Assembly (NCBI GenBank): GCA_963677765.1
Contig: OY782392.1
Location: 300,001-332,000, forward strand
Length of the DNA stretch: 32,000 bases
From: Candidatus Saccharimonadota bacterium
GTDB lineage: Bacteria > Patescibacteriota > Gracilibacteria > BD1-5 > UBA6164
Reading direction: 5' to 3'
Made by a program: the position numbers and the translations under genes. The notes beneath the pieces were generated by a model. The model worked only from the letters and a program-made list of their open reading frames with translations, searched no databases and was not told where the DNA came from. Each line of letters starts with the position of its first letter. Positions within the stretch are counted from its first letter, which is position 1. Below are positions 1-32,000 of the stretch, one piece after another.

Positions 1-117
1 AGTAAAGAAATAGAAAAATTTGTTACTAAAAAAATAACTATTCCCTCTTTTGGATGAGCTGAAAGTTTAAATGCATGAGTAGCTTGTTGAATTATTATAG
101 ATAATCTAAAAAGATAA
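1..117 (+). CDS. SpoU/TrmH-family RNA methyltransferase, C-terminal fragment (5' end outside window)
   Basis: Frame 1 with TGA=Gly gives SKEIEKFVTKKITIPSFGGAESLNAGVACGIIIDNLKR*. This resembles the C-terminal SpoU motif (ESLN..A.GI). TAA stop at 115-117 runs into a hairpin terminator. Confidence 0.65.
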
Positions 118-147
118 AAGCCTTAGCTATCTGCTAAGGCCTTTTTT
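117..147. terminator. Hairpin terminator between convergent genes
   Basis: Stem gccttagc (120-127) / gctaaggc (133-140), 5-nt loop, A-run before and T-run after. It overlaps the last codons of the minus-strand patatin gene. Confidence 0.7.
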
Positions 148-914
148 GTTTCTTTATATCATAAATCTATAAACTCTTTTATTTTATCAAAACTATAATA
201 ATCTAAATCTCAAAAATTTGGTTGAATAATTACCCCTTTTCATTTGGTATTTTCTATAGATTTTAATTCATTTTGTTTCATCATAAGCAAAGTCATTCTA
301 TGAAAAACTTCATAATTATATTCAAAAAATGATTTTTTAGTATTAAATCATAAAAATTTTTTCATTTTTGATAATCTTCAAACTTTTTGTTTTAATGCAC
401 TTATTCAAATAATATTTTCTCAGTCTAATATATCTACAGGTAAATTATTTACTATTCAACCATCCATATATGTATTATCTCATATTTCATAAGGCATAAA
501 AATTCAAGGAAGACTTAAACTAGCTCTAACTGCATCGGATATTTTTCATTTAGTAAAAACTTCTTTTTCTCAAGTTTCTATATTAGTTGCTACTATTTTT
601 AAATCTATATCTAAATCTTCTATATTTTTATTTCAAAAAAGTTCATCCAAAGTTTTTTGAAGTTTTTTTCATTTTATAAATCAAAAATTAAATCAAAAAT
701 CTATAAGTTTATAAATCTTTAGTTCATTAGCAATATTTTCTATTTCAGCTGAATTATTTCAACATGCATATAATGCTCAAACAATAGCTCACATTGAAGT
801 TCATGAAATTTCTTTTATTTCATAATCATTAGTTTCAAGATATCTTAACACTCATATATGTACTAGTCATCTTGCAGCTCATCATCAAAGAGCTAATGAT
901 ATTTCTTTTTTCAT
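123..914 (-). CDS. Patatin-like phospholipase (RssA-like)
   Basis: 263-aa minus ORF (TGA=Gly): MKKEISLALGGGAARGLVHIGVLRYLE...ISGTSMGAIVGALYA...YMDGGIVNNLP. It has the oxyanion GGGxxG, the GxSxG nucleophile and the DGG catalytic Asp. ATG at 914, TAA at 123-125, length divisible by 3. Confidence 0.85.
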
Positions 915-924
915 AATTTTAAAA

Positions 925-1374
925 TTAAATTCATTTAGAAGACAAACTTCAATTTGATAATATATTATTGATACTATTTTTTATTTTTTCAAAGTCTATT
1001 TTATTTTTCTTTTTAGCTAAAACATCATATACTAGTGTATCTTGTTTTTCTGTTCAGTAATTTTCTATAAAAACTTTAAATCAAATAAGAATTTTACCTG
1101 ATTTAACTTTTTCTATAGTATCTTTGTCATAGGCTTTTTTTTGAGAATTATTTAAATTTATAGATTCTACATTATATCATTTATCTTCTAAAAAATTATA
1201 AATACCTAAAAAACTAGTTCAATTATAATCATTTAAAAGTTCTATAAATGATAAGTTTCTTTCAATAATAGATTCTTTTATTCAAGGGAAAGCTTGTTTT
1301 AAGGCATAAGTATGTTGTTCTCTCATATCATCAAGACTAAGAGATGATTTAAAATGATTTGGATTCATAGTCAT
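925..1374 (-). CDS. Hypothetical protein (149 aa)
   Basis: Uninterrupted minus ORF MTMNPNHFKSSLSLDDMREQHTYALKQAFPG...NILSNGSLSSKGI*. It ends 10 nt before the patatin start. No family recognised; the start could also be ATG 1368. Confidence 0.55.
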
Positions 1375-1471
1375 AATATACATTACAATAATTTAAACTA
1401 AATTTATTTATAAATATTTTTTAAAACTTTGCAAGTTAATTAAAAAGAAGACTAATAAAGCCTTCTTTTTT

Positions 1472-3619
1472 TTAATTAAGTCATTTCATAGAAAGTTGAA
1501 TCTTTCAAGTTTTTTCATCTATAGAAGTTACTTTAACTTTTACATTTTGTCACACTTCTAATACTTCTTTTGGATCTGATATAAATCTATCAGTAATTTG
1601 ACTAATATGTACTAATCAATCATTTTTTGTACCTATATCTACAAATGCTCCAAATGCTAAAACATTTCTTACAACTCATTCTATAATATCTCATTCTTTT
1701 ATATCAACACTATCTCATGATAAATTAGCCTTTTTATGAGTAGAATTAACTCTTTTTTCTTTTCATATTTCATTATATGATTTTATAATAAAATCTATAG
1801 TTTCTGAATTTGCATCACTATATAATGAAGTAATGGCTTCTTTATTTTTTTCAAAATCTCAAGGTTTTATATTGTTTTCAATTATATATGAAGCAAGACC
1901 ATATTGTTCTGGATGAATATCAGTATTATCTAATTTTTCTTCACTATCAGGAACTCTTAAAAATCATACAGCTTGTTCATAAACTTTTTCTGATAATTGT
2001 TTAGCTAAATCTTTTCTAGATTTGTAAGGTCTATTATTATAGATTTTTTTAGCTGCCCTTTTATCTATTCAAGATATAAAATTTAAAACATAACTAGAAG
2101 CAGTATTTACATTTATACCTACTTCATTTACAACATCTTCAACAGTATGTCATAATTTTTCTTCTAATTTTTTTTCTGGCATATCATGTTGGTACATACC
2201 TACTCAAATACTTCAAACAGGTACTTTTACCAACTCTGATAATGGATCAATAAATCTTCTAGCAATAGATATAGTACCTCTATCTAAAGAGTCTAAATCT
2301 GGGAATTCTTCTTGAGCAGTTTTTCAAGCACTATATACAGAAGCTCAAGATTCATTAACTATAAAAGTATCTATAGTAGTTATATCTCATAAAAGTTTTA
2401 TAGTTTCATTTACTCAAGTACCATTTCAAACAACTATAACTCATGGATTGTTTTTTGATATAAGTGATTTTAATTTTACTATAGCTTCTCATTTTTTATG
2501 TAAAAATATTTTATCAAAACTTATTGGATTTCATAATTCATCCAAAATAGCAATTTTACACCCTGCCGCAAATCATGGGTCTATTGCCAATATTTTTTTT
2601 CCATATTCTGGCTTTGTCATCAAAAGATTAGCTAAGTTTTGTTTAAAAGTATCAATAGCATCATCCTCAGCAATCTCTGAAAGCATAGATCTTAATTCAT
2701 TTTCTACTGAAGAAAATAATGCTTCATATCAAATTTTGAATCAAGCTTCAAGCTCTTCTATAAAAGGTGCTCTAACTTTTAAAAGTCTAGCATAATGAAA
2801 AAGTATTCCTTCATATGTTTTAGGAGTTTTTTCAATTTTTACAGTTAAAATACCAATTTTTTCTCATCTATTTAAAGCAAGTATTTGATATGGTTTTATA
2901 TTTGATAATTTTATAGAACTATCCTTATATATATCAAATTTTGATATTTGAGCTTTATCTTTGTCATTTAATTTTTCTAAAGATTTTTCAGTTTTTATTT
3001 TTGAAACAATTGAGTTATATTTCTTCAAAGTATCCAATAAATCAGCTCTCAAGTCGCTATTCGCTGTAACTTCAGCACCAATAATGTCAATAGCTCACTC
3101 GATAATTTCTTCTCTTGAATAACTATTTAATAAATCTTCACTAATAATAAAATTCTGTCTATTTTTCTTGATTTCATCAGCTACTACTTGAAATCATTTT
3201 TCTTGAGCAATCATGGCCTTAGTCTTTTTCTTAGACTTATAAGGTTTATAAATATCTTCAACTTCTTTTAGAGTTTTTGCTTTTAATATATTTTGAAGTA
3301 ATTCATCTGTAAGTTTTCATTGTTCATTTATTCAGTTTGTAGCAGTAACTTTGGCTTTATAAATTTTTTCAAGCTTATTTCTCAAATCTACAATAGATCT
3401 TATATTATCCTCATCTAATCATCAAGTTTTTTCTTTTCTATAACGAGCAATAAAAGGGACAGTAGCTCATTCTCAAATCAATTCTAATACTACACTAACC
3501 TGATTATTATCAAATTGTAGCTCTGAAGCAATTTCTGATATATAATCAACTTCTGGAACAAAACTATTTAATTCTAAATCATTTTCTTGGTTTTCTATAT
3601 TTGTATTTTCAATAGTCAT
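1472..3619 (-). CDS. tex: Tex-like transcription accessory protein (S1 RNA-binding domain)
   Basis: 716 codons. N-terminus has ...[25 protein letters not shown]..., the interior has ...YQILALNRGEK..., and the C-terminal S1 domain has [36 protein letters not shown]. ATG at 3619, TAA at 1472-1474. Confidence 0.9.
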
Positions 3620-3700
3620 TTATTTTCATTTAAATAATATGTAAGTTTATTTTAACTTTTTGCTTTTTTTTGCAAATAAAAAAAATAGAAAATCTAGTTT

Positions 3701-30447: not shown

Positions 30448-30475
30448 TTGACAAGTTATAAATTCAAAATATAAT
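30448..30475 (+). promoter_or_regulatory. ssb promoter
   Basis: TTGACA at 30448-30453, 16-nt spacer, TATAAT at 30470-30475. Confidence 0.65.
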
Positions 30476-30534
30476 TACATGGAATTTATTGTAATAATAA
30501 GTTTAAAATTTTATATATCATAAATATTGCTATT

Positions 30535-30975
30535 ATGGATTTAAACAAAGCGCAAATAATTGGTAGAATTACACAAGATTTAGAATTAAAACAAACACCA
30601 AACGGGCAAAATGTTCTTAGTTTCTCTGTTGCAACTAATAGAAACTGGGTTGATTCTAGCTGAATGAAGCAAGAACAAGTTGAGTTTCATAATGTAGTAC
30701 TATGGTGAAAATTATCAGAAATAGCATCTCAATATCTATGAAAATGAAGAAAAGTATTTATAGAATGAAGACTTCAAACTAGATCATGGGAAGCTCAAGA
30801 CGGTACAAAAAGATACAAAACAGAAATAGTATGAGAAAATATGATTATGCTAGACTGAAAAAATGAAACTAATGAAAATTTTGATAATAATAGTTATACT
30901 AATAACACAGCTGCTGTTAAAAAATCCTCTCCTAAACAAGAAGAAGAAATATCAATAGAAGATATTCCTTTTTAG
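30535..30975 (+). CDS. ssb: Single-stranded DNA-binding protein
   Basis: 146 aa: [38 protein letters not shown]...[44 protein letters not shown], with the C-terminal acidic tip [11 protein letters not shown]. Confidence 0.92.
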
Positions 30976-30978
30976 TCA

Positions 30979-31008
30979 AAAATCCAAGCCTTTAGCTTGG
31001 ATTTTATT
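30979..31008 (+). terminator. ssb terminator
   Basis: aaatccaagc-cttta-gcttggattt followed by T-rich sequence. Confidence 0.7.
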
Positions 31009-31086
31009 AATCTTTACAAATTAAATATTTTTCATAAAATTATTTTACAAATAAAGTTATTATTTATATTTTTAATAATTAATTAA

Positions 31087-32000
31087 ATGGATTTATATAG
31101 TGTCTTATGAGTTGATAAAAATGCAAGTAAAGAAGAAATAAAAAAAGCTTACAGAAAAAAAGCTATGGAATACCATCCCGATAGAAATCCTGGTAATTCT
31201 GAAGCAGAAAAAAAATTCAAAGAAGTTGGTAGTGCTTATGAAGTATTATCAGATGACCAAAAAAGAAAACAATATGATATGTTTGGTTCTACATGATGAC
31301 AATCTTGATCTAATCCATTTGGATGAGCAGGAGTAGATGTAGATTTATGAGATATTTTTGAATCATTTTTTTGATGAGGTTTTTGATCTTGATCTAGAAA
31401 AAGAAGAACTGAATTCCCTTGAGAAGATTTAGAATACAATATAAATATAGACTTAAAAACTAGTATTTACTGATGAAAAGAAAAATTAAGTTTCAATAAA
31501 AAAGAAACATGTAATACATGTAATTGAGAATGATGATCAAATAAAAAAACATGTCCTAAATGTAATTGAAGATGACAAGTTACAAAAACTAGTCAAAGTA
31601 TGTTTTGAATGATACAACAAACTGTAACATGTGATGAATGTTCTTGAAGCGGAGAAATTTTTGAAAGCATATGTAATGATTGTAATTGAGAAAAAAGAAA
31701 ATTTATAAAAAAAGAAATAGATTTAGATATACCTGCATGAATTGATGATTCTATGGTTATAAAACTAACTTGAGAATGAAATCATTGAGTATGAACATCT
31801 GCAAAATGAGATTTATATGTTAGATTTAATGTAAATCTTGAAGAAAAATGATTAACAAGAGAATGAGTAGATTTATTTTATAGTATAGAAGTTGAAGTAG
31901 TTGAAGCTGTATTATGAACAAATAAAGAAATAAATATACCTATATTATGAAAAAGGAAAATAGAAATTAAATCATGAACAAATCATTGAAATATTATAAA
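31087..32000 (+). CDS. dnaJ: Chaperone DnaJ (3' end outside window)
   Basis: [37 protein letters not shown]... (J domain, HPD), a G/F linker FFGGGFGSGS, and four zinc-finger repeats CNTCNGEG, CPKCNGRG, CDECSGSG and CNDCNGEK. Most glycines are TGA. Confidence 0.93.

What the first reader, a model, noticed from the sequence alone, without database searches (positions are those of the whole stretch)
1..32000. UGA is decoded as glycine (table 25), so the whole window must be re-called
In-frame TGA sits at invariant glycine positions in many unrelated families. In DnaJ these are the J-domain LGV, the G/F linker FFGGGFGSGS and the CxxCxGxG zinc-finger repeats. Other examples are the MiaA P-loop GPTASGKT (both Gly), patatin GGGAARG and GTSMG, the OLD P-loop GKNSSGKT and Toprim VEGETE, TruB GHTGTLDPLATGG, and FNR ATGTGLAP. 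Conserved Trp is still TGG (WREFW in the photolyase, PDWLK repeats), which excludes the Mycoplasma-type TGA=Trp code. Only TAA or TAG end the roughly 36 ORFs, including a 1765-codon ORF containing dozens of TGA. This code is known from Absconditabacteria (SR1) and Gracilibacteria, so the window very likely comes from that CPR clade. The supplied standard-code ORF track contains only gene fragments plus antisense artefacts.
Basis: partly seen in the sequence, partly recalled or inferred. Interest (0 to 1): 0.55.

Follow-up and report, generated by a model that had tools for sequence, protein, structure and literature searches.

The report
UGA read as glycine, Gracilibacteria genome

Summary
With only TAA/TAG as stops the window resolves into 29 protein genes and 4 tRNAs covering about 87% of the sequence. 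With the standard code only 7 ORFs reach 100 aa. About 455 in-frame TGA codons are present against 124 GGN, so TGA makes up 79% of glycine codons. Glycine content is 6.1% if TGA is counted and 1.3% if it is not. With TGA masked as X, 22 of the first 27 genes called give Pfam matches, most spanning the whole domain model. In alignments to solved structures from nine families, 103 of 168 TGA columns face Gly and none faces Trp. TGG still faces Trp in 10 of 14 cases. The nearest genomes are all Candidatus Gracilibacteria MAGs (Tex protein up to 83% identical). At the window's TGA positions their orthologues carry TGA or GGN and never TGG. A tRNA(UCA) with glycine identity elements occurs in two related loci. 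The window itself holds neither that tRNA nor a release-factor gene, so those two tests remain open for this organism. This is NCBI table 25, validated earlier by proteomics, so it is already known. One side observation stands out: ribosomal-protein genes almost completely avoid TGA, here and in relatives.

The parts
123..914 (-). patatin-like phospholipase gene; 25 in-frame TGA, 2 GGN
   Evidence: Pfam PF01734, E=7e-22 with TGA masked. In the PDB 5fqu alignment 13 of 22 TGA columns face Gly, including GGxRG and GTSMG.
925..1383 (-). hypothetical protein gene; 7 TGA
   Evidence: TAA-delimited ORF. Conserved next to Tex in L059 and L004. No Pfam or NCBIfam match.
1472..3619 (-). Tex (transcription accessory protein, S1 domain) gene; 34 TGA
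   Evidence: Eight Pfam Tex domains matched. PDB 2oce, E=1e-93, with 18 of 34 TGA columns facing Gly. Orthologue codon analysis.
3701..4891 (-). DUF389 membrane protein gene; 15 TGA
   Evidence: Pfam PF04087, E=9e-27, full profile length.
4922..5557 (-). DUF218 protein gene; 13 TGA
   Evidence: Pfam PF02698, E=1e-18.
5564..6466 (-). miaA (tRNA [24 protein letters not shown]); 14 TGA, including both P-loop Gly
   Evidence: Pfam PF01715, E=4e-74. PDB 2qgn, E=6e-71, with 11 of 14 TGA columns facing Gly.
6609..6990 (+). tRNA cluster: Thr(UGU) 6609-6684, Tyr(GUA) 6763-6847, Leu(UAG) 6906-6990
   Evidence: ARAGORN and Rfam RF00005. The same trio is seen in 8-9 related loci.
7053..7307 (+). rpmE (ribosomal protein L31); 0 TGA, 4 GGN
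   Evidence: Pfam PF01197, E=1e-17. Conserved in 7 related loci.
7561..8133 (+). rplJ (ribosomal protein L10); 1 TGA, 11 GGN
   Evidence: Pfam PF00466. Codon counts.
8321..8695 (+). rplL (ribosomal protein L7/L12); 0 TGA, 13 GGN; intact also under table 11
   Evidence: Pfam PF00542 and PF16320. Listed as a standard-code ORF. Start position.
8854..9285 (+). small putative lipoprotein gene; 1 TGA
   Evidence: N-terminal signal plus Cys visible in the translation. Weak match to the SP_0198 lipoprotein family, below cut-off.
9290..10126 (+). ApbE (FAD:protein FMN transferase) gene; 19 TGA, 0 GGN
   Evidence: Pfam PF02424, E=5e-31, full length. PDB 7esa with 12 of 19 TGA columns facing Gly.
10129..11631 (+). 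gene for a 4Fe-4S ferredoxin domain plus FNR-like FAD/NAD-binding reductase with a C-terminal membrane domain; 25 TGA
   Evidence: Pfam PF13370, PF00970 and PF00175. NCBIfam BenC-like match, below cut-off.
11715..12683 (+). gene for a DUF523/2-thiouracil desulfurase domain plus DUF1722 (YbgA-like); 15 TGA
   Evidence: Pfam PF04463 and PF08349.
12706..13122 (+). DUF2177 membrane protein gene; 10 TGA
   Evidence: Pfam PF09945.
13122..13868 (+). DUF1295 / steroid-reductase-like membrane protein gene; 12 TGA
   Evidence: Pfam PF06966, E=1.5e-45.
14079..15548 (-). photolyase-related protein (DPRP family) gene; 23 TGA; ends in TAG
   Evidence: Pfam PF04244.
15548..15871 (-). hypothetical protein gene; 5 TGA
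   Evidence: TAA-delimited ORF. No family match.
16015..17502 (+). photolyase/cryptochrome family gene; 15 TGA
   Evidence: Pfam PF03441 and PF00875.
17505..17645 (+). DUF2256 zinc-ribbon protein gene; 1 TGA
   Evidence: Pfam PF10013, E=1.5e-13.
17732..19051 (+). class I CPD photolyase gene; 19 TGA, 0 GGN, 12 TGG
   Evidence: Pfam PF03441 and PF00875. PDB 1owl, E=1e-73, with 9 of 18 TGA columns facing Gly; WREFW and WQW are encoded by TGG.
19126..20697 (+). OLD-family ATPase/Toprim nuclease gene; 18 TGA
   Evidence: Pfam PF13175 and PF20469. PDB 6p74, with the P-loop and Toprim Gly positions at TGA.
20792..21322 (-). hypothetical membrane protein gene; 8 TGA
   Evidence: TAA-delimited ORF. No family match.
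21410..21994 (-). LemA family gene; 8 TGA
   Evidence: Pfam PF04011, E=1e-51.
22055..22966 (-). TPM-domain protein gene; 19 TGA
   Evidence: Pfam PF04536.
23157..23232 (-). tRNA-Lys(UUU)
   Evidence: ARAGORN and Rfam.
23362..24225 (-). truB (tRNA pseudouridine-55 synthase); 18 TGA
   Evidence: Pfam PF01509. PDB 1sgv with 10 of 14 TGA columns facing Gly, including GHxGTLDP.
24229..24900 (-). signal peptidase I gene; 12 TGA
   Evidence: Pfam PF10502. PDB 4nv4.
24993..30290 (-). gene for a 1765-aa secreted/membrane protein with PKD domains and four C-terminal PDWLK repeats; 78 TGA, 16 TGG
   Evidence: Pfam PF18911 and PF00801. Repeat codons. The longest table-11 ORF in the window (25168-26046, plus strand) lies antisense to it.
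30535..30975 (+). ssb (single-strand DNA-binding protein); 7 TGA; ends in TAG
   Evidence: Pfam PF00436, E=7e-33.
31087..31998 (+). dnaJ, 5' part (runs off the window end); 33 TGA in 304 codons
   Evidence: Pfam PF00226, PF00684 and PF01556. PDB 6jzb, E=5e-46, with 23 of 30 TGA columns facing Gly.

Best explanation
The window is chromosomal DNA of an uncultured, very AT-rich (23% GC) member of the Candidatus Gracilibacteria (BD1-5) lineage of the CPR/Patescibacteria. This lineage uses NCBI genetic code 25, in which UGA is a sense codon for glycine and only UAA and UAG terminate.

Shown here:
- TGA is in frame throughout real genes.
- TGA occupies glycine positions.
- TGA is interchangeable with GGN in orthologues.
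- TGG remains tryptophan.
- The nearest relatives found are Gracilibacteria.

Inferred from relatives and the literature:
- UGA is read by a dedicated tRNA-Gly with anticodon UCA. This tRNA keeps the glycine acceptor-stem identity set (G1:C72, C2:G71, G3:C70, U73) and is charged by the normal GlyRS.
- Release factor 2 has been lost, so nothing competes at UGA. RF1 terminates at UAA/UAG.

Inferred from codon counts:
- GGA to TGA is a single synonymous G-to-T change in this code. Strong AT mutation pressure has therefore made TGA the majority glycine codon (79%).
- Selection in highly expressed ribosomal-protein genes keeps GGU/GGA there.
For: ORF restoration when TGA is read as sense.

Pfam hits in 22 of the first 27 genes called, most spanning the whole domain model, with TGA masked as X, plus L31 and DUF2256.

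103 of 168 TGA columns face Gly and none faces Trp in PDB homologues from nine families. Summed BLOSUM62 scores are G +535, S +30, W -380.

Glycine content is 6.1% with TGA counted and 1.3% without.

Genome scan for Tex relatives: 66 Gracilibacteria-type loci at up to 83% identity, against 35-39% for standard-code outgroups.

At the window's 34 Tex TGA columns the relatives carry TGA 792 times, GGN 825 times and TGG never. Standard-code outgroups carry GGN at 168 of 324.

The TGA share of Gly codons rises smoothly as GC falls across Gracilibacteria loci, and the window sits on that trend.

In the internal repeats of the 1765-aa gene, the residue after PDWLK is GGA in one copy and TGA in two.

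tRNA(UCA) with Gly identity elements is found in L041 and L046, with compensatory stem changes between the two. It scores 43.5 bits against Rfam tRNA.

Literature: proteomic validation in a BD1-5 bacterium, with 97 peptides unique to the UGA=Gly translation, 3 to Trp and 0 to stop (PMC4032931). prfB is absent from BD1-5 genomes (PMC6851277). Codetta infers UGA=Gly for Gracilibacteria (PMC8629427).
Against: No tRNA-Gly(UCA), GlyRS, prfA or prfB gene lies in the window, so the decoding machinery of this particular organism is not observed.

About 39% of TGA columns face a residue other than Gly in distant homologues. That is expected at variable positions, and genuine GGN glycines in the same alignments match Gly at a similar or only slightly higher rate. 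It still leaves room for a low level of ambiguous decoding.

The source contig could not be located in the public collections.
Confidence: 0.97

Rival explanations
1. UGA encodes tryptophan (table 4), as in Mycoplasma/Spiroplasma and several insect endosymbionts.
For: Table 4 restores the same long ORFs as table 25. The genome is very AT-rich, like table-4 organisms.
Against: None of 168 TGA columns faces Trp in PDB homologues, and the summed BLOSUM62 score for W is -380. TGG is never found at the window's TGA columns in 66 orthologues. TGG occupies the conserved Trp columns in 10 of 14 cases. Under table 4, Trp would be 5.6% and Gly 1.3% of residues, both implausible. The relatives are Gracilibacteria, not Mollicutes.
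Confidence: 0.005
2. UGA is still a stop codon and the window is a decayed, pseudogenised region or an assembly or sequencing artefact.
For: Under table 11 almost every gene appears broken.
Against: Homology continues in the same frame across all of the roughly 455 TGA codons, with no frameshift and not one in-frame TAA or TAG. The chance for the 1765-codon gene alone is about 10^-60. TGA positions are specifically Gly columns. The same pattern is seen in dozens of independent MAGs.
Confidence: 0.002
3. UGA is mainly glycine but is decoded ambiguously. There would be a minority of Trp or other insertions, or residual termination, so UGA is a costly codon rather than a clean synonym of GGN.
For: Ribosomal-protein genes almost exclude TGA: 1 TGA against 28 GGN, compared with 453 against 96 elsewhere, p=3e-19. 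The same holds in relatives: 5% against 51%, p about 1e-88. Hanke et al. detected single peptides with Trp, Ala, Asp or Lys at UGA (PMC4032931). Shulgina and Eddy note possible U34 wobble ambiguity between UGA and UGG (PMC8629427).
Against: The avoidance can equally be ordinary translational selection for the codon read by the most abundant tRNA-Gly. The same genes also shift towards AAC/TTC/ATC and away from AAG/GAG. Nothing in the DNA measures decoding error. TGA sits at catalytically essential glycines (P-loops, the patatin GxSxG motif), which argues for accurate decoding.
Confidence: 0.15
4. UGA encodes selenocysteine or cysteine.
For: ARAGORN labels tRNA(UCA) as 'tRNA-SeC' by default.
Against: With about 455 sites, TGA accounts for 4.8% of codons. 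No TGA column faces Cys, and the summed BLOSUM62 score for C is -431. The relatives' tRNA(UCA) has a 7-bp acceptor stem, a normal short variable arm and the Gly identity set, not the SeC architecture.
Confidence: 0.001

Closest known systems
NCBI translation table 25 (Candidate Division SR1 and Gracilibacteria code; Campbell et al. 2013, Rinke et al. 2013; proteomic validation by Hanke et al. 2014, PMC4032931)
   Same: UGA is a sense codon at glycine positions, UAA/UAG are the only stops, and UGG remains Trp. The genome is low in GC. The nearest relatives are Gracilibacteria MAGs. tRNA(UCA) with glycine identity elements is present in related genomes.
   Different: Nothing differs in kind. The window sits at the AT-rich extreme of the clade: 23% GC, with TGA making up 79% of Gly codons and GGC absent. 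The closest genome found is only 83% identical in Tex, so it is probably a species without a close representative in the collections searched.
Translation table 4 (Mycoplasma/Spiroplasma and insect endosymbionts; UGA=Trp)
   Same: The same codon is captured, in an AT-rich reduced genome, with RF2 loss as the proposed route.
   Different: The amino acid differs. None of 168 TGA columns faces Trp. The decoding tRNA in relatives has glycine rather than tryptophan identity elements.
Extended Absconditabacteria code (UGA=Gly plus CGA/CGG=Trp; Shulgina and Eddy 2021, PMC8629427)
   Same: It belongs to the same wider clade and shares the UGA=Gly reassignment.
   Different: The window has no CGA, CGG or CGC codon in 9491 codons, so it neither shows nor excludes this second reassignment. 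In Tex orthologues of higher-GC Gracilibacteria, CGA/CGG sit at Arg/Lys columns.

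Membership tests
Genetic code 25 (UGA=Gly) | In-frame UGA inside conserved protein genes, with homology continuing across it | tested here: met
   About 455 in-frame TGA in 27 of 29 genes. With TGA masked, 22 of the first 27 genes called give Pfam matches, most spanning the whole domain model.
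Genetic code 25 (UGA=Gly) | UGA columns correspond to glycine in homologues from standard-code organisms | tested here: met
   103 of 168 columns face Gly in PDB homologues of nine families, against a 4.7% background. The BLOSUM62 sum is highest for G by more than 500. Standard-code Tex outgroups carry GGN at 52% of the TGA columns.
Genetic code 25 (UGA=Gly) | UGG still encodes Trp and is not interchangeable with UGA | tested here: met
   TGG faces Trp in 10 of 14 PDB columns. No TGG occurs at 2220 orthologous codons aligned to window TGA columns.
Genetic code 25 (UGA=Gly) | Only UAA/UAG terminate genes | tested here: met
   All 28 complete CDS end in TAA (26) or TAG (2).
Genetic code 25 (UGA=Gly) | tRNA-Gly with anticodon UCA in the genome | not testable with these tools
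   The window holds only tRNA-Thr, Tyr, Leu and Lys, and the source contig was not found. In relatives, tRNA(UCA) with G1:C72, C2:G71, G3:C70 and U73 occurs at L041:8147-8225 and L046:9786-9864.
Genetic code 25 (UGA=Gly) | Release factor 2 (prfB) absent, RF1 present | not testable with these tools
   No release-factor gene lies in the window. The literature reports no prfB in any BD1-5 genome, including CP042461.1, which is locus L026 here (PMC6851277).
Candidatus Gracilibacteria (BD1-5) | Closest homologues and gene order match Gracilibacteria genomes | tested here: met
   Tex is 56-83% identical to 66 Gracilibacteria-type loci and 35-39% identical to Bacillota and other outgroups. Genes g01-g11 are syntenic with L004, and g01-g06 with L059. 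No 16S rRNA or marker-gene phylogeny was run.
Genetic code 4 (UGA=Trp) | UGA columns correspond to tryptophan | tested here: not met
   None of 168 columns faces Trp. The BLOSUM62 sum for W is -380.
Absconditabacteria extended code (CGA/CGG=Trp) | CGA/CGG codons at conserved Trp columns | tested here: inconclusive
   CGA, CGG and CGC each occur 0 times in 9491 codons, so there is nothing to align.

The most novel reading that the evidence does not exclude
In Gracilibacteria the captured stop codon UGA has become the majority glycine codon in ordinary genes, yet it is almost excluded from ribosomal-protein genes. In the window the count is 1 TGA against 28 GGN, compared with 453 against 96 elsewhere. 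Across 19 loci selected as code-25-like (three of them high-GC and possibly not recoded) the share is 5% against 51%. If this reflects a real decoding cost of UGA, then the clade offers a natural and graded read-out of the fitness cost of stop-codon capture. Candidate causes are slow or error-prone reading by the single tRNA-Gly(UCA), or cross-reading with UGG/Trp. I did not find this pattern reported in the papers I could search. The founding SR1 paper was not available to check.
Probability: 0.3. Interest if true: 0.4.

Novelty: already known. Interest (0 to 1): 0.2.

Why it matters
The practical consequence is for annotation. Any standard-code gene call on this window is wrong for 27 of 29 genes, and table 4 would put Trp at about 455 glycine positions, including P-loops and catalytic motifs. 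Table 25 must be used. Biologically it adds one more very AT-rich Gracilibacteria genome fragment to a clade whose code has been known since 2013, so it does not change understanding of the genetic code. The gradient of UGA use with GC content, and the exclusion of UGA from ribosomal-protein genes, are small but usable handles on how a captured stop codon spreads and what it costs.

Tried and rejected
Locating the source contig. Exact-protein look-ups of the two TGA-free proteins, rplL and rpmE, found nothing. The organism's own tRNA(UCA) and prfB could therefore not be examined.

tRNA folding. Minimum-free-energy folding of the relatives' tRNA(UCA) did not give a cloverleaf and was uninformative. 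The Rfam covariance model did confirm a tRNA.

FNR residue-level check. The last PDB search, on the FNR-like protein, used too strict a threshold (1e-8) and returned nothing. The ATGTGLAP motif therefore rests on the Pfam domain match only.

NCBIfam. It gave no hit above the curated cut-offs for nine poorly characterised proteins.

More tRNA(UCA) copies. Scanning 80 further metagenome loci found none.

Literature. Campbell et al. 2013 (PMC3619370) is not held. What I say about its in-vitro charging experiment is from memory.

Considered and rejected:
- Phage or plasmid origin. The window carries housekeeping genes and is syntenic with MAG chromosomes.
- Selenocysteine.
- Pseudogenisation.
- Reversion to the standard code in low-TGA relatives such as L024. 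Its Tex gene still has 3 in-frame TGA, 2 of which align with the window's own TGA columns.

Full report
1. What is in the window

The window is 23.2% GC. Under the standard bacterial code it is almost devoid of genes. Stop-to-stop ORFs of at least 100 codons cover 21% of it, and only seven start-to-stop ORFs reach 100 aa. The longest of those (25168-26046, plus strand, 292 aa) lies antisense to what turns out to be a 1765-codon gene.

If only TAA and TAG are treated as stops, a tidy non-overlapping gene set appears. It has 27 CDS plus two small ones found when I inspected the gaps: rpmE at 7053-7307 and a DUF2256 zinc-ribbon gene at 17505-17645. There are also four tRNAs: Thr-UGU, Tyr-GUA, Leu-UAG and Lys-UUU. 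All 28 complete CDS end in TAA (26) or TAG (2).

These genes contain about 455 in-frame TGA codons, 124 GGN codons and 79 TGG. The 1765-codon gene alone has 78 TGA and no TAA/TAG. At the off-frame TAA+TAG rate of 7.6%, the probability of that is about 10^-60.

2. What TGA means

I translated TGA as X so that no hypothesis was built into the test. Pfam still matched 22 of the 27 proteins, most across the whole domain model. The matches were patatin, Tex, DUF389, DUF218, MiaA, L10, L7/L12, ApbE, a ferredoxin-FNR fusion, DUF523+DUF1722, DUF2177, DUF1295, three photolyase/cryptochrome-family proteins, an OLD-family nuclease, LemA, TPM, TruB, signal peptidase I, a PKD-domain giant protein, SSB and DnaJ.

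I then aligned nine of them to solved structures from standard-code organisms and tabulated the residue facing each X. TGA columns facing Gly, by family:
- DnaJ 23/30
- MiaA 11/14
- TruB 10/14
- photolyase 9/18
- Tex 18/34
- ApbE 12/19
- signal peptidase 3/9
- patatin 13/22
- OLD 4/8

In total 103 of 168 columns (61%) face Gly and none faces Trp. The background Gly frequency at the other aligned columns is 4.7% (binomial p about 1e-77 on the first 138 columns). Summed BLOSUM62 scores for each candidate meaning give G +535, S +30, N -1, W -380 and C -431.

Genuine GGN glycines in the same alignments face Gly 20 times. TGG faces Trp in 10 of 14 cases.

With TGA counted, glycine is 6.1% of residues. 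Without it glycine is 1.3%.

Only the FNR 'ATGTGLAP' motif was not checked residue by residue. It lies at the start of the Pfam NAD_binding_1 match.

The four PDWLK repeats of the giant protein give an internal control. The next residue is GGA in one copy and TGA in two.

3. Where it comes from

A scan of one genome per GTDB species with the Tex protein returned 79 loci. The 66 best (56-83% identity) are MAGs titled Candidatus Gracilibacteria or carry generic or automatic labels. They include the complete genomes CP017714.1 (HOT-871) and CP042461.1 (28_42_T64). The remainder (35-39% identity) are Bacillota, Spirochaetota and similar, and serve as standard-code outgroups. Gene order g01-g11 is conserved in L004 and g01-g06 in L059.

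At the 34 TGA columns of the window's Tex gene, the Gracilibacteria orthologues carry TGA 792 times, GGN 825 times, other codons 603 times and TGG never. The outgroups carry GGN at 168 of 324 codons. TGA and GGN are therefore exchanged freely as synonyms within the clade.

Across these loci the TGA share of glycine codons rises as GC falls. It is about 15-35% at 35-43% GC and about 70-80% at 21-25% GC. The window, at 79%, lies on the trend next to L057, L059 and L049. It is a typical AT-rich Gracilibacterium, not an outlier.

4. Mechanism

Shown in the window: UGA is sense and means Gly, UAA/UAG terminate, and UGG means Trp.

Not observable in the window: the decoder and the release factors.

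In two related loci ARAGORN finds a tRNA with anticodon UCA, at L041:8147-8225 and L046:9786-9864. Its sequence shows G1:C72, C2:G71, G3:C70 and discriminator U73. These are the criteria Shulgina and Eddy used to call tRNA-Gly(UCA) (PMC8629427). The two copies differ by compensatory changes in the acceptor and T stems. The Rfam tRNA model scores it at 43.5 bits with a normal cloverleaf and the anticodon loop CUUCAAC.

From the literature:
- Proteomics on a BD1-5 enrichment found 97 peptides unique to the UGA=Gly translation, against 3 for Trp and 0 for stop (PMC4032931).
- prfB is missing and prfA is present in the closed genome CP042461.1 and other BD1-5 genomes (PMC6851277).
- From memory of Campbell et al. 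2013, which was not available to re-read, SR1 GlyRS charges tRNA-Gly(UCA) in vitro.

Inferred: GGA to TGA is one synonymous G-to-T change in this code. AT pressure therefore drives TGA up to majority status. GGC, CGA, CGG and CGC have disappeared from the 9491 codons of the window.

5. Rivals

- Table 4 (UGA=Trp) is excluded by the column counts, by amino-acid composition and by lineage.
- Pseudogenisation or artefact is excluded by perfect frame continuity, the total absence of in-frame TAA/TAG and the Gly-specific placement of TGA.
- Selenocysteine and cysteine are excluded by the number of sites and the columns they occupy.
- A softer rival stays open at modest probability. It holds that UGA is mainly Gly but is a costly or slightly ambiguous codon. 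It is suggested by the next observation.

6. Side observation: ribosomal-protein genes avoid TGA

The three ribosomal-protein genes rplJ, rplL and rpmE together use 1 TGA and 28 GGN. The other genes use 453 TGA and 96 GGN (Fisher p=3e-19). GC3 is identical in the two sets (0.10). The ribosomal genes also show ordinary translational-selection shifts, with more AAC/TTC/ATC and almost no AAG/GAG.

The pattern holds in relatives. In 19 loci selected as code-25-like (TGA share above 15% in neighbouring genes), drawn from GTDB genomes and a JGI metagenome scan, the same three genes have 22 TGA against 402 GGN (5%). Their neighbours have 2334 against 2234 (51%), p about 1e-88. Three of the 19 loci are high in GC (41-60%) and may not be recoded. 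They contribute little to the totals.

I found no report of this pattern in the searchable library.

- There are 29 CDS rather than 'roughly 36 ORFs'.
- rplL (8321-8695) and rpmE contain no TGA. rplL is a correct full-length ORF in the standard-code list, so that track is not exclusively fragments and artefacts.
- The closest genome records found are all labelled Gracilibacteria-type, and none is labelled SR1/Absconditabacteria.
- A second reassignment, CGA/CGG to Trp, has been proposed for parts of this clade (PMC8629427). It cannot be assessed here because those codons are absent. In Tex orthologues of higher-GC Gracilibacteria they sit at Arg/Lys columns.

8. Verdict

The phenomenon is already known as NCBI table 25 in Gracilibacteria. 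Interest is low (0.2). The value is mainly in correct annotation, plus a minor and possibly unreported codon-usage pattern.

Noticed in passing
window 7053-7307, 7561-8133, 8321-8695 (rpmE, rplJ, rplL); relatives L004, L006, L012, L022, L023, L026, L080-L087, L091: Ribosomal-protein genes almost exclude the reassigned codon. In the window they have 1 TGA against 28 GGN, compared with 453 against 96 in the other genes (p=3e-19). In 19 loci selected as code-25-like the share is 5% against 51% (p about 1e-88). GC3 is equal in both sets, so this looks like translational selection against UGA.
   Followed up: yes
window, all 27 CDS first called (9491 codons): The codons CGA, CGG, CGC and GGC are completely absent. 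Arg is encoded by AGA (245), AGG (21) and CGT (8). Whether this organism shares the proposed CGA/CGG to Trp reassignment therefore cannot be judged from the window.
   Followed up: partly
window 11715-19051: A compact light-response and repair cluster in a reduced CPR genome. It holds a YbgA-like DUF523+DUF1722 gene, DUF2177, DUF1295, a DPRP photolyase-related gene, a photolyase/cryptochrome-family gene, a DUF2256 zinc-ribbon gene and a class I CPD photolyase. Three photolyase-superfamily paralogues suggest a light-exposed habitat.
   Followed up: no
window 24993-30290 (-): A 1765-aa protein with a signal peptide, PKD domains, one late transmembrane segment and a long Lys/Asp/Ser-rich tail. 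The tail carries four (I/V)PDWLK repeats at 25887-25910, 25629-25652, 25275-25298 and 25005-25028. Its function is unknown. It may be a surface or attachment protein.
   Followed up: partly
window 19126-20697 (+): A stand-alone OLD-family ATPase/Toprim nuclease. It has weak similarity to the retron Eco8 effector, the PARIS protein AriA and the Septu protein PtuA, and is a possible anti-phage defence gene. The flanking genes are a photolyase and a small membrane protein. No partner gene was recognised.
   Followed up: no
window 6609-8695: rplJ-rplL is preceded by a tRNA Thr-Tyr-Leu cluster and rpmE rather than rplK-rplA, and is followed by a lipoprotein gene and ApbE rather than rpoB-rpoC. The tRNA trio recurs in 8-9 related loci.
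   Followed up: partly
L006, L007, L010, L011, L014, L021 and others: Several public records titled 'Candidatus Peribacteria', and one titled 'Flavobacteriaceae bacterium', carry Tex genes 64-76% identical to the window's, with in-frame TGA at glycine columns. These titles look like taxonomy-mapping or binning errors. The contigs are Gracilibacteria-type and need table 25.
   Followed up: partly
L001-L066: Across Gracilibacteria loci the TGA share of glycine codons tracks GC content, from about 80% at 21-25% GC to about 4-20% at 31-55% GC. Even the GC-rich or low-TGA members (L024, L035) keep a few in-frame TGA at Gly columns, so the code is retained while the codon becomes rare.
   Followed up: partly
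window 25168-26046 (+): The longest standard-code ORF in the window (292 aa) is an antisense artefact inside the 1765-aa gene. AT-rich coding sequence that lacks TAA/TAG on one strand leaves long open frames on the other.
   Followed up: yes
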